Shown one piece after another: positions 26,074 through 31,629 of a stretch of DNA of 53,082 nucleotides. Each line of letters starts with the position of its first letter. Positions within the stretch are counted from its first letter, which is position 1. The notes under the pieces were generated by a model that made no database searches, had not been told where the DNA came from, and worked only from the letters and a program-made list of their open reading frames with translations. The translations under genes and the position numbers were made by a program. The DNA is from Candidatus Pacearchaeota archaeon (GTDB lineage: Archaea > Nanobdellota > Nanobdellia > Pacearchaeales > GW2011-AR1): positions 1-53,082 of the forward strand of contig VGKP01000003.1 of the NCBI GenBank assembly GCA_016866975.1, given 5' to 3'.

Positions 26074-27666
26074 TCACCATTCTTGAGCATCCAACTTACT
26101 AGACTTTCTCATATAGGCTACCAATATGAATATGACGATTATTATAATCAAAGACAATATAAACAATAAAGCTACCCAGTAGACTATGCCTGCGTTCTGC
26201 ACTTTTGATCCTGGACCCAATAATGTGCTATTGATTGTAAGATTGGAACTGTTTACCACTAAATTGTTGTTTGTAGATGCACTTCCGCTTTGTTTTGAAA
26301 CTGGAAAAGCTTCTCTTACGGCCAAGATTTTAAGATTTGCCTTTCCAGATGTAATGCTTATTAATGTCACATTTAGGTCAAAATATAAGTCGCTGTTAAC
26401 ATCGAATTGTCTTGTCTGTCCAACAGCTATGGTTGCCTGCTGTGGTGTTGAAGAGACATTGATGACTACGCTCTGCCCAAAGACATTTACCATCCCTACA
26501 TGATGGTCTTCCCCGGCCACCTTGACTCTTATGGCTTCAGAATTTGCAAGTTCTTTTGTATATCCTGCATTTGCTTGAGTATCATTTATTATAAATATTA
26601 ACTTCCATTGAGGTGAACTTGTTATCTGGGACCCAGAATTGCCCTCTGAAGGCACGCAAGCCGACGTGGTAGCTGTAGCATTCTGAGCTTTAGAGTTTCC
26701 AGCACTATCTGTACAAGTGACAGTATAATTATAGTTGCTAAGACAAGTCAGACTTGATTCTGTAAGTCTTTGACTTGTCCCATTTCCAGATATAGTTGCT
26801 CCTGACCTGCTTGATGTGCACATTGCACTGACTCCAGATAGAGAATCACTGAGAGTTATGTTAATAGACACTACAGATGCAGTAACTTCTGAAGTAGATA
26901 AAGTTACAGTAGGAGAGGTAGTATCTAAGATAAATATTCTATTCTCGCTCCAGTTCCTGTTTCCAAAGCTATCATTGGCACTAACATTTATCCTATAGGT
27001 TCCCTGAACAAGTCCGCTGAAATTTACATTTATTGATGATGAAGTATAGTTTGTAGTAGAATTTACTATCTGGTGAGAAGCATTATAGAGATAGAAAGAT
27101 ACTGACTGAAAAATGCCATTATCTGATACACTCACATTCATTGTCAAAGAAGTTGTAGAGAGATTTATCCCAGAAAGAGAGGTTGGAGAATTGAATGTCA
27201 AGGATGGAGGAGTAGTGTCATTCACAGATACTGCAATCAATGTAGTATTGGAGAATCCGGAGCTATTTGCCGTGATTATTGTAAAATTGAAATTGCCTGG
27301 ATTTGCCGCTGTAGCATTAAACCATACAAATACTCTGCTTCCATTTTTCACAATTCCTAAATCTGAAGAAGAAACATTCCATATAAGGTCTGATGAGCTT
27401 GAAAATGTCGTGCTTGTGCTGCTGCTCATTCCAGCACTACCTGAAACATAAGTAAATCCTGATGGGAGAGTTATGTTTATATAAGAAATATTCTCAGGAG
27501 ATGTCAAAGCAGTATTGTTTACAGAGATATTGTAAAGTATAGAGATGTCTTCATTTGAATTAAAAGAAGCCTGAAAGTCTGAGGTTAAGACTATATGCAA
27601 TGCAGACACTCCAAATAACAACACTATGAATAGAAAAGCGGCCGTTGAAAAAAGACTACACCTCAT
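26074..27666 (-). CDS. Surface/S-layer-like glycoprotein with Ig-like repeats and C-terminal TM anchor
   Basis: Signal peptide, dense N-x-S/T sequons, Ser/Thr rich; module-for-module paralog of the next gene. Confidence 0.75.
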   Translation of the reverse strand: MRCSLFSTAAFLFIVLLFGVSALHIVLTSDFQASFNSNEDISILYNISVNNTALTSPENISYINITLPSGFTYVSGSAGMSSSTSTTFSSSSDLIWNVSSSDLGIVKNGSRVFVWFNATAANPGNFNFTIITANSSGFSNTTLIAVSVNDTTPPSLTFNSPTSLSGINLSTTSLTMNVSVSDNGIFQSVSFYLYNASHQIVNSTTNYTSSSINVNFSGLVQGTYRINVSANDSFGNRNWSENRIFILDTTSPTVTLSTSEVTASVVSINITLSDSLSGVSAMCTSSRSGATISGNGTSQRLTESSLTCLSNYNYTVTCTDSAGNSKAQNATATTSACVPSEGNSGSQITSSPQWKLIFIINDTQANAGYTKELANSEAIRVKVAGEDHHVGMVNVFGQSVVINVSSTPQQATIAVGQTRQFDVNSDLYFDLNVTLISITSGKANLKILAVREAFPVSKQSGSASTNNNLVVNSSNLTINSTLLGPGSKVQNAGIVYWVALLFILSLIIIIVIFILVAYMRKSSKLDAQEW

Positions 27667-27696
27667 AGATGAAAAAAGATTACAAGTTTTATAAAT

Positions 27697-29706
27697 CTAC
27701 CTACGACGACGCCGCATCACTAGGACAATTAATATCACTACAATGATAGCCACTACAAGATACACATATTTATCTGAGGATAATGTTTTTTGGGTCTTCT
27801 TTTCTGCCTGCCCAACATCCTGTTTTTGTTCTCCGCTTTCTTGAGCAGTATTCTCAGAGGATGGCTTCTTATTGGTATCTGAAGCGACTATTGCTGAAGG
27901 CATTATCTCATAGACTTTCTTCATGGTTACATTAACCTTTCCAGCCTGAATGCTATTGAGGGTCACATTAAGGTCATAATAACTGTCATTTGTAAGCTCG
28001 AATTGCCTTGTCTGTCCTACTCTCAAAGTAACTTTCTGAGGTGTTGAAGCAACTTCAATAGTTGCAGTTCCAGCACTGGAATCAACACTCACAACTCCTA
28101 CACTATGACTGCCTCCACTTACAGTGATGCTCGCCTTCTGATTGGCTGAGAGAGAAGTAGAGACTCCTTCACTTACCTGCGTCTCCGTTACAGTCTGTAC
28201 TACTGACCAAGAAGGGGTTGTAGAAGGACTGCTTCCGCCGCCTCCACCGCCGCCGCCTCCTCCACTAGAACATCCTAAAGTTGTGAAATCCTTTGTCGCA
28301 GCCCCAGAACGACCACTCTGGTCGTAACAGGTTATGGTATATGAATACGTAGTGCTGCAAGTCAAGCTAGATTCTGTAAGTGTCTGACTTCCTCCCGTGC
28401 CACTTACGCTGGATGTAGAACGATTTGTAGTACAGGTGCCATTGATAGAAGATCCAGATTCGGCAACAGTAATTGGGACACTTATAGTTGTATCTGTTGA
28501 TGTAGACTCTCCAAGTGAGACTGTAGGGTTAGAAGTATCTACTGTAATAGTTCTTGTTGGCAGACTCAAATTCAGGTTTCCAGCAGTGTCATTGACTGTG
28601 ACATTAAAGAAGTAGACACCATCATTAAGTCCTGTGAAGTTAACATAGAATGAAGAGAGAGTGCCATTATCACTAGCAAATGTGAGATTGCTCCTAACAA
28701 TACTTCCACTTGCATTATGAAGCGATATATTAGTAAAATTGAAATTGGTATCAATTGCAGAAATATTGACAACTATAAAGTTTCTACTTACAAAAGAATT
28801 ATTTGCCTCAGTTCCAGTGCCATAGGTAGGAACAGGAATTATAGTATCGATAGTGACTGTTCTCGTAGCAGTAGTAGCATTGAGATTTCCAGCAGTATCA
28901 TTAGCTGTGACATTGAAATAGTATACACCATCAGCAAGATTTGTAATATTGAAGCTAAAGTTCGTGTTTAGTTTAGTTTCTTGAGAGACATTAGAGAATG
29001 TTGTAGTATTGGTATAATTGAACGTGCCTGAAAGATTAGAGCCGCTTGCATTGTAAAACATTCCACTCGCGTTAAAGAGTGCAAGTGTAATGGTTTGTAT
29101 TGCACCATTATCATATGTACTAGCATTAACAAAAATTGATCTAGCAGCGATAAAAGACCCATTTAATGGAGTTGACCCCTGATAAGTTATTGCATTCGGT
29201 ATGGTAGTATCATTTACAATTATTGAAATATTGGTATAATTGACAAAACCAGATACATTCATCGTCGTCACAGTCATATTGTATGTTCCAGGAGTAGATG
29301 CGTTGACCAAGAACCAGAAGTTTACCCTTGTTGCATTTGCTACAAGGATGGCTCCTGTCCCGTCTGCAAGAGTGCTGTTCCAAGAAAGCACAGTAGAAGT
29401 ATTAGTGAAAGTAATACCATACCCGCTTGTTGTTGCATTAGTTGCATTTGTCCCATTTAGGAAAGAAAATCCAGTAAGAAGAGTGACATTCACTTGAGTT
29501 ATATTATCGAAAGCAAGGAGAGCAGTGTTATTCACAGTTATATTTATTGTGAAATTCACATCTTCTCTAGCAGGAACGTGCCCAGCAGCATTGAGTGGCG
29601 CACCAGTAATTATGTCAAATCCTTGAACTATGGATAAAAATATTATAGCAAACAGAACAGACCATACGAATAAAAACACTGCAAACCATCTGCCCTCTTT
29701 TTTCAT
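27697..29706 (-). CDS. Surface/S-layer-like glycoprotein (paralog, with an internal duplicated module and poly-Gly linker); start likely MKKEGRW
   Basis: DGVY(Y/F)FNVT(A/V)NDTAGNLN occurs twice, a G10 linker, and TM plus basic tail. The upstream extension in the ORF track runs into the hairpin element. Confidence 0.75.
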   Translation of the reverse strand: MKKEGRWFAVFLFVWSVLFAIIFLSIVQGFDIITGAPLNAAGHVPAREDVNFTINITVNNTALLAFDNITQVNVTLLTGFSFLNGTNATNATTSGYGITFTNTSTVLSWNSTLADGTGAILVANATRVNFWFLVNASTPGTYNMTVTTMNVSGFVNYTNISIIVNDTTIPNAITYQGSTPLNGSFIAARSIFVNASTYDNGAIQTITLALFNASGMFYNASGSNLSGTFNYTNTTTFSNVSQETKLNTNFSFNITNLADGVYYFNVTANDTAGNLNATTATRTVTIDTIIPVPTYGTGTEANNSFVSRNFIVVNISAIDTNFNFTNISLHNASGSIVRSNLTFASDNGTLSSFYVNFTGLNDGVYFFNVTVNDTAGNLNLSLPTRTITVDTSNPTVSLGESTSTDTTISVPITVAESGSSINGTCTTNRSTSSVSGTGGSQTLTESSLTCSTTYSYTITCYDQSGRSGAATKDFTTLGCSSGGGGGGGGGGSSPSTTPSWSVVQTVTETQVSEGVSTSLSANQKASITVSGGSHSVGVVSVDSSAGTATIEVASTPQKVTLRVGQTRQFELTNDSYYDLNVTLNSIQAGKVNVTMKKVYEIMPSAIVASDTNKKPSSENTAQESGEQKQDVGQAEKKTQKTLSSDKYVYLVVAIIVVILIVLVMRRRRR

Positions 29707-29733
29707 CACTTTAAATCTATGAAAAACAGGTAT

Positions 29734-29855
29734 ATCACAAAAACGATGCGCCACCTCGGCTTAAAAGCCGAGGTTTGTTGCAGGCGCTCGTTTTTGGAGA
29801 TGCTCGGGAACCACCACACCTTGAAAGGTGTGGTTTTCATCGGTTCCCGACATAA
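29734..29855 (+). mobile_element. Hairpin element copy 3 (A + B)
   Basis: ATCA...ccacctcggcttaaaagccgagg...cgggaaccaccacaccttgaaaggtgtgg...GACATAA. Confidence 0.93.
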
Positions 29856-29863
29856 ATATTACG

Positions 29864-30955
29864 TCAGAGGATCTCTGCGCATCCAAGGACCTTGTTCTTT
29901 ATAGAAAATACAATAATCTGTCCTGAGGCTATTGAAGAGATAGGCTTATCAGATTCAAAGTACATCTTTCCGCCTACTCTAACTACCTTGCCCTCATGAT
30001 ATTCCCCCAGATGTCTTATTCTGGCACAGACTTTGCCATTAAGAGAAGAGCCAGGGCCAATCATATGTACCTTGCCGATATTTATCCTTTTTCTGCACAA
30101 TCTAATGTCTCCCTCAGGCGCGACTTTAATTATATTTTTCTTGACGTCTTTACTTACCACATAAAACCTCTTCTGTGCCAGTCCATAAGGTTTGACTAAT
30201 TTAATTCCTGAACTCTCTCCTGCCTTCTGTCCTTCAGTATAGAAAAATGCTCCATTATGTTCTCCAATTTCAGTCCCATCAGGCATCACAACTCTTCCTT
30301 TCTTCTCTCTTATCTTCGTTCTAAGAAAATTGCGCATATTGTCCTGTCCAACAAAACATATCCCTACTGTGCCATGTTTGTCCCAGTTTGGCAACCCTTC
30401 TTTTCTTGCAATATCTCTTACATCCTTTTTCTTGTAATGCCCAAGAGGAAAAATCGTCCTAGAAAGATGATTTTGCGAAAGGTCCGAAAGGAAATATGAC
30501 TGATCCTTATCCTTATCTGCTCCTGAAAATAGTTCCCACACTTTTCCTCTTCTCCTTACTCGCGCATAATGGCCAGTAGAAATATATTCAGCTTCAAGTT
30601 TCCTGGCAGCAGTGAGCAATAAAGGGAACTTGATGACTTTGTTGCATGCAATATCTGGATTTGGGGTCTTCCCTCTTTTATATCCTTCAAACATGGGTCC
30701 TAGAACTTTATTCTTGTAGTCCTTTTCATAGTCAAGGACATGTAAGGGAATCTCTAATATCATTGCAACTTTCCTGGCCATCTTAAGATCTTCAAGATAC
30801 TTGCATTCTCCAGTAGACTTATTCTTTGTATCAGAATACAACTTAAAAAATACTCCGACAACTTCATAGCCTTTTTTCTTTAATAAAAGCGCCGCTACGC
30901 TTGAATCAACTCCTCCAGACAGTCCAATTACAACTTTCTTTCTCTGGTTTTTCAT
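29864..30955 (-). CDS. mnmA: tRNA 2-thiouridine(34) synthase MnmA (bacterial type)
   Basis: SGGVDSS, PNPDIACN, TGHYAR, KDQSYFL and GICFVG motifs. Confidence 0.92.
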   Translation of the reverse strand: MKNQRKKVVIGLSGGVDSSVAALLLKKKGYEVVGVFFKLYSDTKNKSTGECKYLEDLKMARKVAMILEIPLHVLDYEKDYKNKVLGPMFEGYKRGKTPNPDIACNKVIKFPLLLTAARKLEAEYISTGHYARVRRRGKVWELFSGADKDKDQSYFLSDLSQNHLSRTIFPLGHYKKKDVRDIARKEGLPNWDKHGTVGICFVGQDNMRNFLRTKIREKKGRVVMPDGTEIGEHNGAFFYTEGQKAGESSGIKLVKPYGLAQKRFYVVSKDVKKNIIKVAPEGDIRLCRKRINIGKVHMIGPGSSLNGKVCARIRHLGEYHEGKVVRVGGKMYFESDKPISSIASGQIIVFSIKNKVLGCAEIL

Positions 30956-31295: not shown

Positions 31296-31574
31296 CGTCC
31301 CCTGGAGGACTCGAACCTCCGACCCTGCGGTTACAACCTTCTCTAATTACTTAGAGGGTAGGACTATACCATCACCATAGCAAAATGCCTCAGGTGGCGA
31401 GTGTCTAGTCTCTGCACCTTCCCTTTCGGGCTTGGCTCAGGATTGCCCTTTACCAATAAAGGGTTTCCCTGAATTTACTCGCTTTTTCATTCCACAGTTT
31501 CCTATGAAAGCTGCTAACTCGGTTTTTTCAACCTGTCTTACAGCCGCATGCTCTACCGGCTGAGCTAAGGGGAC
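31296..31574 (-). tRNA. tRNA-Asn(GTT) interrupted at 35/36 (exon 1 31574-31540, exon 2 31333-31296)
   Basis: Splicing gives a canonical 73-nt cloverleaf: GTCCCCT/AGGGGAC, TGCGG-CT-GTT-AA-CCGCA, GGAGG-TTCGAGT-CCTCC, G73. Confidence 0.9.
31334..31539 (-). ncRNA. Group I intron (IC3-like), 206 nt, no ORF
   Basis: P3 GCGAGU/ACUCGC, P4 UUCAGG/CCUGAG, P7 GACUA/UAGUC, IGS GUUAGCAGC forming P1 (U35.G wobble) and P10, terminal omega-G. Confidence 0.92.
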
Positions 31575-31629
31575 ATAGAAACATCAAAGAAAAACGTTAT
31601 TTAAAGCTTTAGATGAAGCACAAAATAAG

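What the first reader, a model, noticed from the sequence alone, without database searches (positions are those of the whole stretch)
31296..31574. Self-splicing-type group I intron in the anticodon (35/36) of an archaeal tRNA-Asn(GUU)
Seen (minus strand): exon 1 ends ...GCGGCUGU, a 206-nt intron ends in G, and exon 2 starts UAACCGCA. The internal guide GUUAGCAGC (31518-31510) pairs with exon 1 GCUGU with the required U.G at the splice site (P1) and with exon 2 UAAC (P10), which fixes both junctions and the Asn identity (G73 agrees). The core is complete: P2 with GAAA loop, P3 GCGAGU/ACUCGC, P4, P5 CCCUUUA/UAAAGGG, P6a CCC-GAAA-GGG, P7 GACUA/UAGUC, P8 with CCUGAG...UAUGG (variant 11-nt GAAA receptor), and P9 CUCUAA-GUAA-UUAGAG. 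Known: this closely resembles the 205-nt Azoarcus IC3 ribozyme, whereas archaeal tRNA introns are normally BHB introns cut by EndA. From recollection, archaeal group I introns are reported mostly in rRNA, and 35/36 tRNA-Asn group I introns have been reported in CPR bacteria; both points need checking. Inferred: cross-domain intron transfer, an EndA-independent maturation route for an essential tRNA, and a gene that standard tRNA scans would miss.
Basis: partly seen in the sequence, partly recalled or inferred. Interest (0 to 1): 0.9.

Follow-up and report, generated by a model that had tools for sequence, protein, structure and literature searches.

The report
Self-splicing-type intron in archaeal tRNA-Asn
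The only asparagine tRNA gene of this small DPANN archaeon is split inside its anticodon by a complete bacterial-type group I (self-splicing) intron, a kind of intron that the papers I could search accept in archaea only for ribosomal RNA genes.

Summary
On the minus strand, 31574-31296 is a tRNA-Asn(GUU) gene. A 206-nt intron (31539-31334) splits it between anticodon positions 35 and 36.

- **Identity.** The intron scores 81.5 bits on Rfam Intron_gpI (cut-off 50). It has the U.G pair at the 5' splice site, a terminal G, and helices P1-P10.
- **Structure support.** 93% of predicted pairs hold. There are 23-25 compensatory pairs in 13 cross-domain and in 55 archaea-only relatives.
- **Host.** The host is genuinely archaeal: archaeal rRNA and EndA in the genome; KH protein, aIF2-beta, RPA and MCM beside the gene; G1-C72 exons without encoded CCA; and a TTTAAATA box upstream.
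- **Empty site.** Same-genus genomes carry the uninterrupted gene (up to 96% identical, reading CUGUUAACC) at the syntenic locus.
- **Distribution.** The same intron sits in tRNA-Asn of at least 10 other Woese-/Pacearchaeota-type genomes and 70 metagenome contigs. About 27 of these contigs have introns long enough to hold an HNH-like homing endonuclease ORF in the P1 loop. The window copy lacks the ORF.
- **Relatives.** The nearest relatives are tRNA-Asn introns of Omnitrophota, Planctomycetia and Patescibacteria. The endonuclease tree points to one cross-domain transfer.

No bulge-helix-bulge motif fits the junctions, so ribozyme splicing is the likely route. In print I found only one archaeal hit, dismissed in 2020 as mis-binning.

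The parts
31296..31574 (-). Whole tRNA-Asn(GUU) gene, interrupted. It is the only tRNA-Asn found in the 806-kb, 89%-complete genome.
31540..31574 (-). Exon 1 (tRNA positions 1-35), ending ...GCGGCUGU. U35 is the -1 U of the 5' splice site.
   Evidence: The empty-site allele in G013 is contiguous here.
31334..31539 (-). 206-nt group I intron, compact IC3-like type, without an ORF.
   Evidence: Rfam RF00028 at 81.5 bits; covariation
31296..31333 (-). Exon 2 (positions 36-73), UAACCGCA...GGGGAC plus discriminator G. There is no encoded CCA, and TTTT follows at 31295-31292.
31519..31539 (-). P1 loop, with a small GGUU-GAAAA-AACC hairpin. In relatives the HNH-like endonuclease ORF sits at this place.
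31510..31518 (-). Internal guide sequence GUUAGCAGC. GCAGC(U) pairs with exon 1 GGCUGU (P1, with the U.G pair at the splice site). GUUA pairs with exon 2 UAAC (P10).
   Evidence: The P1 U.G pair is invariant in 13/13. P10 co-varies with the exon.
31491..31508 (-). P2 hairpin with GAAA tetraloop.
   Evidence: All 7 pairs show compensatory changes.
31477..31482 (-). P3 5' strand, GCGAGU. It pairs with ACUCGC at 31397-31402.
   Evidence: 100% paired, 2 compensatory pairs
31416..31473 (-). P4-P5-P6-P6a domain, including GGGCAAUCCUGAGCCAAGCC.
31406..31412 (-). P7 5' strand, GAGACUA (guanosine-binding helix). It pairs with UAGUCC at 31361-31366.
   Evidence: invariant in all relatives
31373..31396 (-). 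P8, carrying a CCUGAG...UAUGG variant of the 11-nt tetraloop receptor. Most relatives read CCUAAA/G...UAUGG.
31336..31359 (-). P9.0 (ACC/GGU) enclosing P9 (CUCUAA-GUAA-UUAGAG). The terminal omega-G is at 31334.
31598..31605 (-). TTTAAATA box about 27 nt upstream of tRNA position 1, resembling an archaeal TATA box. The same box precedes the gene in congeners.
   Evidence: Sequence read. Its function is inferred.

Best explanation
This is a genuine archaeal tRNA-Asn(GUU) gene carrying a compact, ORF-less group I intron between anticodon nucleotides 35 and 36. The intron is IC3-like and belongs to the class 'Asn.4Ug'.

**How it most likely works.**
1. The gene is transcribed from its own TATA-like box as a 279-nt precursor.
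2. The intron folds into the P3-P9 and P4-P6 core.
3. The guide sequence GUUAGCAGC binds the end of exon 1 (P1, with the U.G wobble) and the start of exon 2 (P10).
4. An external guanosine attacks after U35.
5. The freed exon 1 then attacks after the terminal G. The exons join as CU-GUU-AA and the intron is released.
6. No splicing endonuclease or ligase is needed.

**Origin.** The copy derives from a mobile intron that carries an HNH-like homing endonuclease in its P1 loop. That element targets the anticodon arm of tRNA-Asn genes, which is nearly the same in bacteria and archaea. It appears to have crossed once between bacteria (Omnitrophota, Planctomycetia and Patescibacteria relatives) and DPANN archaea, and then spread and decayed within them. 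The window holds a decayed, immobile copy that must still splice.

**Shown and inferred.**
- Shown: the anatomy, homology, host identity, empty site and distribution.
- Inferred: the chemistry in vivo, the direction of transfer, and the endonuclease's target.
For: **Intron identity**
- Rfam match at 81.5 bits.
- Exact tRNA after in-silico splicing.
- Structure supported by 25 compensatory pairs across domains.
- 23 compensatory pairs among 55 distinct archaeal copies, with P3, P4 and P7 100% paired.
- The guide sequence co-varies with exon 2: G/A against C/U, Fisher p = 1e-4, not corrected for phylogeny.

**The tRNA must be made from this gene**
- It is the only tRNA-Asn in the genome.
- The exons are intact and 96% identical to a congener's uninterrupted gene.

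**Archaeal host**
- Archaeal rRNA and EndA.
- Archaeal neighbouring genes.
- Synteny on both flanks with G008, which lacks the intron.
- A relative's 192-kb contig holds both an archaeal LSU rRNA and this intron.
- G1-C72, CCA-less exons in all archaeal carriers, against U1-A72 plus CCA in bacterial ones.

**Mobility and origin**
- About 27 of 68 archaeal copies are 486-566 nt, long enough for the endonuclease ORF. 25 have it intact by motif, and three copies (337-456 nt) are intermediate.
- The archaeal endonuclease is 63% identical to a deltaproteobacterial one.
- The endonuclease tree splits archaea from bacteria at 99.8/100 support. The archaeal clade is nested among bacteria when the tree is rooted on subfamily B.
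- Intron subfamily A (archaea plus five bacteria) is separated at 99.4/100.
- The distribution is sporadic: 5 of 61 near relatives and 4 of 401 genomes across the phylum.

**Endonuclease route unlikely**
- No hBHBh' motif fits the two junctions in any register.
Against: - There is no RNA evidence.
- Self-splicing may need a protein helper in vivo.
- The genome is 89% complete, so a second, uninterrupted tRNA-Asn gene cannot be fully excluded.
- The HNH assignment is below Pfam's cut-off (17-18 bits against 21.4).
- The intron-core tree does not resolve archaeal monophyly (supports of 26-79).
The bacterial sampling, and therefore the inferred direction of transfer, is provisional.
- P8 carries a G in place of the first A of the receptor's AA platform. 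The effect of this is unknown.
Confidence: 0.85

Rival explanations
1. The stretch is bacterial DNA, either mis-binned or chimerically assembled into an archaeal genome. This is how the one earlier archaeal hit was explained in Williams 2020.
For: - The intron's closest non-archaeal relatives are bacterial.
- Williams 2020 suspected mis-binning for a Pacearchaeota hit.
- The downstream gene is an MnmA-type tRNA thiouridylase, a family best known from bacteria.
Against: - The exons are archaeal-type: G1-C72, no CCA, followed by a T-run. All 25 bacterial carriers have U1-A72 plus CCA.
- A KH protein, DUF424, aIF2-beta, RPA and MCM lie within 0.06-6 kb on the same contig.
- Congeners share both flanks and have the same gene without the intron.
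- G039 carries the intron on a 192-kb contig together with an archaeal LSU rRNA.
- All 70 metagenome contigs have archaeal-type exon 2 (60 of them both exons); some of these contigs reach 188-867 kb.
Confidence: 0.01
2. The ribozyme no longer works on its own. The intron is removed by proteins, either a helper such as a maturase or synthetase-type cofactor, or an endonuclease-plus-ligase route, so the RNA is only a passive or assisted substrate.
For: - Many group I introns need protein cofactors in vivo (general knowledge).
- The genome encodes EndA.
- Congeners use short introns at 37/38 in the same gene.
- The P8 receptor is a variant.
Against: - No BHB motif fits the junctions in any of 16 registers.
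- The whole catalytic core, including P7, J-regions, the U.G pair and omega-G, is invariant or compensated across 55 archaeal copies. That would not be needed for protein-only excision.
- The compact tRNA introns of this type that have been studied self-splice without proteins. This rests on my own knowledge of the Azoarcus and Anabaena introns and was not tested here.
Confidence: 0.08
3. The gene is a disabled copy. tRNA-Asn comes from another gene in the missing 11% of the genome, or from the host cell of this probable symbiont.
For: - The genome is 89% complete.
- DPANN archaea depend on hosts for many functions (general knowledge).
Against: - All four tRNA stems are perfect, and the exons are 86-96% identical to the functional-looking genes of congeners.
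- The intron fold is conserved by compensatory change within archaea.
- In the window's own genome and in seven other archaeal carriers read here, the interrupted gene is the only tRNA-Asn seen in the genome or fetched locus. G040 has two tRNA-Asn genes, and both are interrupted.
- A search with the spliced sequence finds only the two exon halves in this genome.
Confidence: 0.05

Closest known systems
Bacterial tRNA-Asn group I introns, class 'Asn.4Ug' (Williams 2020, bioRxiv 10.1101/2020.01.27.920355; seed Pam37.Asn.4Ug)
   Same: - Same host gene, with the same insertion point after the fourth anticodon-loop nucleotide (35/36), the same U at -1 and the same terminal G.
- Homologous ribozyme core: 71-79% identity to the compact bacterial copies in Omnitrophota, Planctomycetia and Patescibacteria.
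- Homologous endonuclease in the P1 loop.
   Different: - The host here is an archaeon with archaeal-type exons.
- The preprint treated its single archaeal hit as probable mis-binning.
- The window copy lacks the ORF.
- Most bacterial copies (subfamily B) carry an extra domain between P7 and P3' that this compact form lacks.
Azoarcus sp. BH72 pre-tRNA-Ile(CAU) intron and cyanobacterial/plastid tRNA-Leu(UAA) intron (subgroup IC3)
   Same: - Size of about 200 nt, with no P5abc.
- P2 GAAA loop and a P8 receptor-like motif.
- P9.0/P9 with a GNRA loop.
- Near-identical core words: GGCAAUCCUGAGCCAAGC and AAGGUGCAGAGACUA/C. This is recalled knowledge plus an illustrative alignment to a recalled sequence.
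   Different: - A different tRNA and a different insertion point (36/37 and 34/35, from memory).
- Bacterial or plastid hosts.
- Subgroup membership was not tested with a subgroup-specific model here.
Archaeal group I introns in rRNA genes (Nawrocki, Jones and Eddy 2018, PMC6125680)
   Same: - Group I ribozymes in DPANN and other archaea.
- Relatives of this genome also carry such introns in the LSU rRNA gene.
   Different: - Those introns are of subgroups IA3 and IB4 and sit only in rRNA genes (39 of 39).
- They carry LAGLIDADG endonucleases.
- This one is IC3-like, sits in a tRNA anticodon, and its family carries an HNH-like endonuclease.
Archaeal bulge-helix-bulge tRNA introns cut by EndA
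   Same: - They interrupt archaeal tRNA genes in or near the anticodon loop.
- Congeners have such short introns at 37/38 of the same tRNA-Asn gene.
   Different: - No BHB motif fits these junctions.
- The position is 35/36.
- The 206 nt fold as a ribozyme.

Membership tests
Group I intron (Rfam RF00028) | Match to the family covariance model above its gathering score | tested here: met
   81.5 bits against 50, E = 3e-19. Archaeal relatives score 72-97 bits.
Group I intron (Rfam RF00028) | P1 helix formed by the 5' exon and an internal guide, with a U.G wobble at the splice site | tested here: met
   GGCUGU pairs with GCAGCU, 6 bp. The U.G pair is present in 13/13 sequences. All 55 archaeal copies keep CUGU in the exon and GCAGC in the guide.
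Group I intron (Rfam RF00028) | Terminal guanosine (omega-G) before the 3' splice site, and P10 with the 3' exon | tested here: met
   The intron ends ...GGUUG. GUUA pairs with UAAC, and the guide co-varies with exon 2.
Group I intron (Rfam RF00028) | Conserved core of P3-P8/P7 pseudoknot and P4-P6 domain, supported by covariation | tested here: met
   63 pairs, 93% paired, 25 compensatory, 0/500 shuffles. Among archaea alone, 23 pairs are compensatory.
Group I intron (Rfam RF00028) | Guanosine-dependent two-step self-splicing | not testable with these tools
   This needs in-vitro transcription or RNA reads.
Bacterial-type tRNA group I introns (IC3; class Asn.4Ug) | Insertion in the tRNA-Asn anticodon loop after loop nucleotide 4, with U at -1 and omega-G | tested here: met
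   CUGU|...G|UAA in the window, and in all 33 genome and 60 metagenome copies. The class is named in the preprint's seed alignment.
Bacterial-type tRNA group I introns (IC3; class Asn.4Ug) | Sequence homology of the core to bacterial members | tested here: met
   71-79% identity to compact bacterial copies and 60-69% to the rest. Subfamily A has 99.4/100 support.
Bacterial-type tRNA group I introns (IC3; class Asn.4Ug) | Subgroup IC3 architecture (no P5abc, P2, P9.0, L2-P8 tetraloop/receptor) | tested here: inconclusive
   The helices are present in sequence. No subgroup-specific model was available, and the receptor is a variant (CCUGAG).
Bacterial-type tRNA group I introns (IC3; class Asn.4Ug) | Bacterial or plastid host (as described so far) | tested here: not met
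   The host is archaeal. This is the new point, not a reason to exclude homology.
Archaeal BHB intron | Two 3-nt bulges holding the splice sites, separated by a 4-bp helix and flanked by helices | tested here: not met
   In 16 registers none has a 4-bp central helix together with both flanking helices. The cleavage register itself is taken from memory.
Mobile group I intron with homing endonuclease | Intron-encoded endonuclease ORF | tested here: not met
   The window copy has none, and there is no homologue anywhere in the genome. Among the archaeal relatives, 25 have the ORF intact by motif. The HNH match is below Pfam's cut-off.

The most novel reading that the evidence does not exclude
Self-splicing by a group I ribozyme is a real and, in these lineages, indispensable route for making an essential tRNA in Archaea, running beside the EndA pathway.

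The intron-plus-endonuclease unit entered DPANN archaea from bacteria by homing into the tRNA-Asn anticodon arm, a target shared by both domains. It has since cycled through invasion, endonuclease decay and loss.

In one genus the same gene exists uninterrupted, with short introns at 37/38, or with the group I intron. The group therefore offers a natural test bed for the old proposal that archaeal BHB introns descend from group I introns.
Probability: 0.6. Interest if true: 0.72.

Novelty: new member of a known kind. Interest (0 to 1): 0.6.

Why it matters
- **What is in print.** In the literature I could search, archaeal group I introns are accepted only in rRNA genes (PMC6125680). The single tRNA case was set aside as a binning error (Williams 2020).
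- **What this adds.** This locus and its roughly 80 relatives show that the case is real. An archaeal tRNA can depend on a ribozyme rather than on EndA.
- **Annotation.** DPANN genomes that seem to lack tRNA-Asn may simply have this intron. Default tRNA finders miss it.
- **Gene transfer.** It documents a mobile intron and its endonuclease crossing the bacteria-archaea boundary.
- **Intron evolution.** It places group I and short 37/38 introns in the same orthologous gene within one genus, which bears on how the two intron types relate.

Tried and rejected
- **Failed call.** One multi-locus Rfam call failed internally. I repeated it in parts.
- **First tree.** A tree of 125 core windows with fixed flanks mixed exon and intron sequence and could not be interpreted. 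I replaced it with exactly delimited introns.
- **ARAGORN errors.**
  - It mis-called several long tRNA-Asn introns as tRNA-Thr or tRNA-Arg (L039, L073, L097, L133).
  - It called three Burkholderiales copies tRNA-Asp.
  - I re-derived the boundaries from anticodon-stem complementarity.
- **Truncated scan.** The genome contigs pattern also hits many bacterial tRNA-Gln/Arg/Ser/Tyr introns and was cut at 120 rows. Bacterial diversity is therefore under-sampled.
- **Viruses.** No copy of the compact subfamily was found in viral contigs, so a viral vector has no support so far.
- **BHB reading.** Rejected.
- **Direction of transfer.** The intron core alone does not resolve it (supports 26-79). Only the endonuclease tree is clear.
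- **Azoarcus comparison.** It used a sequence recalled from memory and is illustrative only.

Full report
**1. The observation**

The minus strand of 31574-31296 reads GUCCCCU-UA-GCUC-AGCCGGUA-GAGC-A-UGCGG-CUGU, then 206 nt, then UAA-CCGCA-GGGUC-GGAGG-UUCGAGU-CCUCC-AGGGGAC-G. Removing the 206 nt (31539-31334) gives a 73-nt cloverleaf with perfect acceptor, D, anticodon and T stems, the loop CU-GUU-AA and discriminator G. ARAGORN calls it tRNA-Asn(GUU).

No neighbouring cut gives the same product, so the junctions are unique. Default ARAGORN and the Rfam tRNA model both miss the gene. ARAGORN with introns allowed finds it, and it is the only tRNA-Asn in the 806-kb, 31-contig, 89%-complete genome. 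A search with the spliced sequence finds only the two exon halves.

**2. It is a group I intron**

Rfam Intron_gpI matches at 81.5 bits (gathering score 50, E = 3e-19), the only such hit in the genome.

- **P1:** exon GGCUGU with guide GCAGCU, with U35.G at the splice site.
- **P10:** guide GUUA with exon 2 UAAC.
- **P2:** GAAA loop.
- **P3:** GCGAGU/ACUCGC.
- **P4:** UCAGG/CCUGA.
- **P5:** CCCUUUA/UAAAGGG.
- **P6/P6a:** CCC-GAAA-GGG.
- **P7:** GACUA/UAGUC, plus G-C across a bulged A.
- **P8:** CCUGAG...UAUGG.
- **P9.0:** ACC/GGU.
- **P9:** CUCUAA-GUAA-UUAGAG.
- **Terminal G:** at 31334.

Energy minimisation alone recovers P2, P3, P4, P5, P6a, P8 and P9 (z = -2.9 against shuffles).

I tested the structure on 13 relatives (8 archaeal, 5 bacterial):

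| Measure | Result |
|---|---|
| Cells paired | 93.1% |
| Pairs with changes on both sides | 25 of 63 |
| Shuffles reaching this | 0 of 500 |
| Slid controls, cells paired | 31-47% |
| P2 pairs that co-vary | 7 of 7 |
| P4, P6, P7 and the U.G pair | invariant |

**3. The host is archaeal and the contig is not a chimera**

- The genome has archaeal SSU (1309 bits) and LSU rRNA and a tRNA-splicing endonuclease (88 bits).
- On the window's own contig, upstream of the tRNA on the same strand, lie a KH-domain protein (ending 56 nt away), DUF424, aIF2-beta, an RPA-like OB protein and MCM. Downstream is an MnmA-type thiouridylase.
- A TTTAAATA box sits about 27 nt upstream and a T-run follows the discriminator. 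The same box precedes the gene in congeners.
- Archaeal and bacterial carriers of this intron differ in their exons. All archaeal copies have G1-C72 and no encoded CCA. All 25 bacterial copies have U1-A72 and, in most...GGAGCCA. The window's exons are of the archaeal kind.

**4. Empty site**

Seven same-genus genomes have an uninterrupted tRNA-Asn(GUU) that is 86-96% identical over all 73 positions. G013 reads GCATGCGGCTGTTAACCGCAGGGTC, identical to the window's joined exons across the junction.

G008 aligns with the window on both flanks (the KH/DUF424/aIF2-beta side and the MnmA side), with exactly the 206 nt missing. G010, also same genus, has a 207-nt intron at the orthologous locus.

**5. 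Distribution**

- Among 61 near relatives, Intron_gpI hits in tRNA-Asn occur in 5 genomes: G000, G010, G025, G039 and G040. The other hits are in LSU rRNA, as already published.
- An even sample of 401 genomes of the phylum has it in 4. The two new ones (G264, G299) are again tRNA-Asn at 35/36.
- Named records are titled Candidatus Pacearchaeota, Woesearchaeota or Nanoarchaeota archaeon. G040 is the Woesearchaeota record.
- G039 carries the intron on a 192-kb contig that begins with an archaeal LSU rRNA.
- A metagenome scan with a pattern from the archaeal 3' end found 70 contigs, some 188-867 kb long. All have archaeal-type exon 2. 60 have both exons, with introns of 189-566 nt.
- None was found in viral contigs.

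**6. A mobile family**

About 27 of the 68 archaeal copies are 486-566 nt long. 25 of them carry an intact ORF of roughly 100 aa in the P1 loop, and its last codons (K-L-A-A-S) overlap the guide sequence. The ORF has the CxxC...HH...CxxCH pattern of HNH nucleases, but it scores below Pfam's cut-off (17-18 bits against 21.4).

Truncated ORFs (L028), remnants (L022, L143) and ORF-less copies (the window, G010, G025) complete the picture of invasion, decay and loss. The window's genome has no homologue of the ORF.

**7. Relation to bacterial introns**

The truncated genome scan also returned 25 bacterial tRNA-Asn genes with an intron at the same site. They come from Elusimicrobia, Aminicenantes, Omnitrophota, Deltaproteobacteria, Planctomycetes, Eubacteriales, Burkholderiales, Patescibacteria and others. 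Two subfamilies appear:

- **Subfamily A** is compact. It comprises all archaeal copies plus five bacterial ones: Omnitrophota L039 and L047, Planctomycetia L097 and L133, and Patescibacteria L073.
- **Subfamily B** carries an extra domain after P7.
- The split has 99.4/100 support.

The window's core is 78-86% identical to other archaeal copies, 71-79% to subfamily A bacteria and 60-69% to subfamily B. An archaeal endonuclease is 63% identical to a deltaproteobacterial one.

In the endonuclease tree, the 25 archaeal proteins are separated from the 6 bacterial ones at 99.8/100. Rooted on subfamily B, the archaeal clade is nested among bacteria, next to Omnitrophota (91% bootstrap). This fits one transfer from bacteria into DPANN archaea followed by spread. 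The intron core alone does not resolve the direction, and the bacterial sampling is incomplete.

**8. Selection within archaea**

Among 55 distinct archaeal copies:

- 93.3% of cells pair (slid controls 31-48%).
- 23 pairs show compensatory change.
- P3, P4 and P7 are 100% paired.
- The first guide nucleotide tracks exon 2 position +4: G with C in 30 copies and A with U in 12. Against these stand A with C in 8 and G with U in 3. Fisher p = 1e-4, not corrected for phylogeny.

The ribozyme and its exon pairing have therefore been maintained after arrival in archaea. This is what one expects if splicing of the sole tRNA-Asn depends on them.

**9. Not a BHB intron**

In 16 registers of bulge placement around the two junctions, none gives a 4-bp central helix together with both flanking helices. 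The position, 35/36, is also not the canonical 37/38.

By contrast, congeners G003, G006, G007 and G011 have short inserts at 37/38 of the same gene. G004 and G022 have an additional insert in the D-loop.

**10. Literature**

- Nawrocki et al. 2018 found 39 archaeal group I introns, all in rRNA, of subgroups IA3 and IB4, with LAGLIDADG ORFs.
- Williams 2020 mapped 21 types of bacterial tRNA group I intron, including Asn.4Ug. [quoted passage not shown]
- The other papers I searched do not report archaeal tRNA group I introns.
- Three earlier notes of this scan describe the same phenomenon in other genomes. They agree with this report but are not independent evidence.

**11. Verdict**

What remains inferred is the chemistry in vivo and the direction of transfer. 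It is a new host-domain member of a known intron class, not a new mechanism.

Noticed in passing
L160 (G007), L161 (G011), L162 (G006), L168 (G004), L169 (G003), L170 (G022), L166 (G047), L171 (G021): The orthologous tRNA-Asn gene of several same-genus, same-family or same-order genomes carries short inserts of about 12-66 nt at 37/38, the canonical archaeal intron position. G004 and G022 have a second insert in the D-loop. So this one gene occurs uninterrupted, with short introns, or with the group I intron.
   Followed up: partly
L113:38-95 (-) and upstream to about 5100: A 7-kb contig titled 'Halobacteria archaeon' has an IC3-like group I core inside a split family-A DNA polymerase gene next to a PIF1-like helicase. 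It looks like phage or viral DNA binned with an archaeon. The intron is cut by the contig end.
   Followed up: partly
L007, L008, L010, L011 (also L013, L016): Relatives of this genome carry group I introns in the archaeal LSU rRNA gene, as published for DPANN archaea. The window's own genome has none.
   Followed up: partly
L004/L058 (G040:C24) and L018 (G040:C16): One MAG holds two different tRNA-Asn genes, each with the group I intron. One is cut by a contig end. This may be strain mixture or a true duplicate. The L058 copy has a C-A mismatch in its anticodon stem.
   Followed up: no
window 29864-30955 (-): A full MnmA-type tRNA 2-thiouridylase (235.8 bits) lies directly downstream of the tRNA. 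It is conserved in position in congener G008. The family is best known from bacteria.
   Followed up: no
window 26074-29754 (-): Two large adjacent ORFs (530 and 685 aa) have only weak bacterial Ig-like (Big_13) matches. They may be surface proteins.
   Followed up: no
I did not verify these calls, and some may be false.
   Followed up: no
L039, L073, L097, L133, L043, L117, L127: ARAGORN assigns these bacterial tRNA-Asn genes with long or compact group I introns to Thr, Arg or Asp. Automated surveys of split tRNAs will undercount the Asn class.
   Followed up: yes
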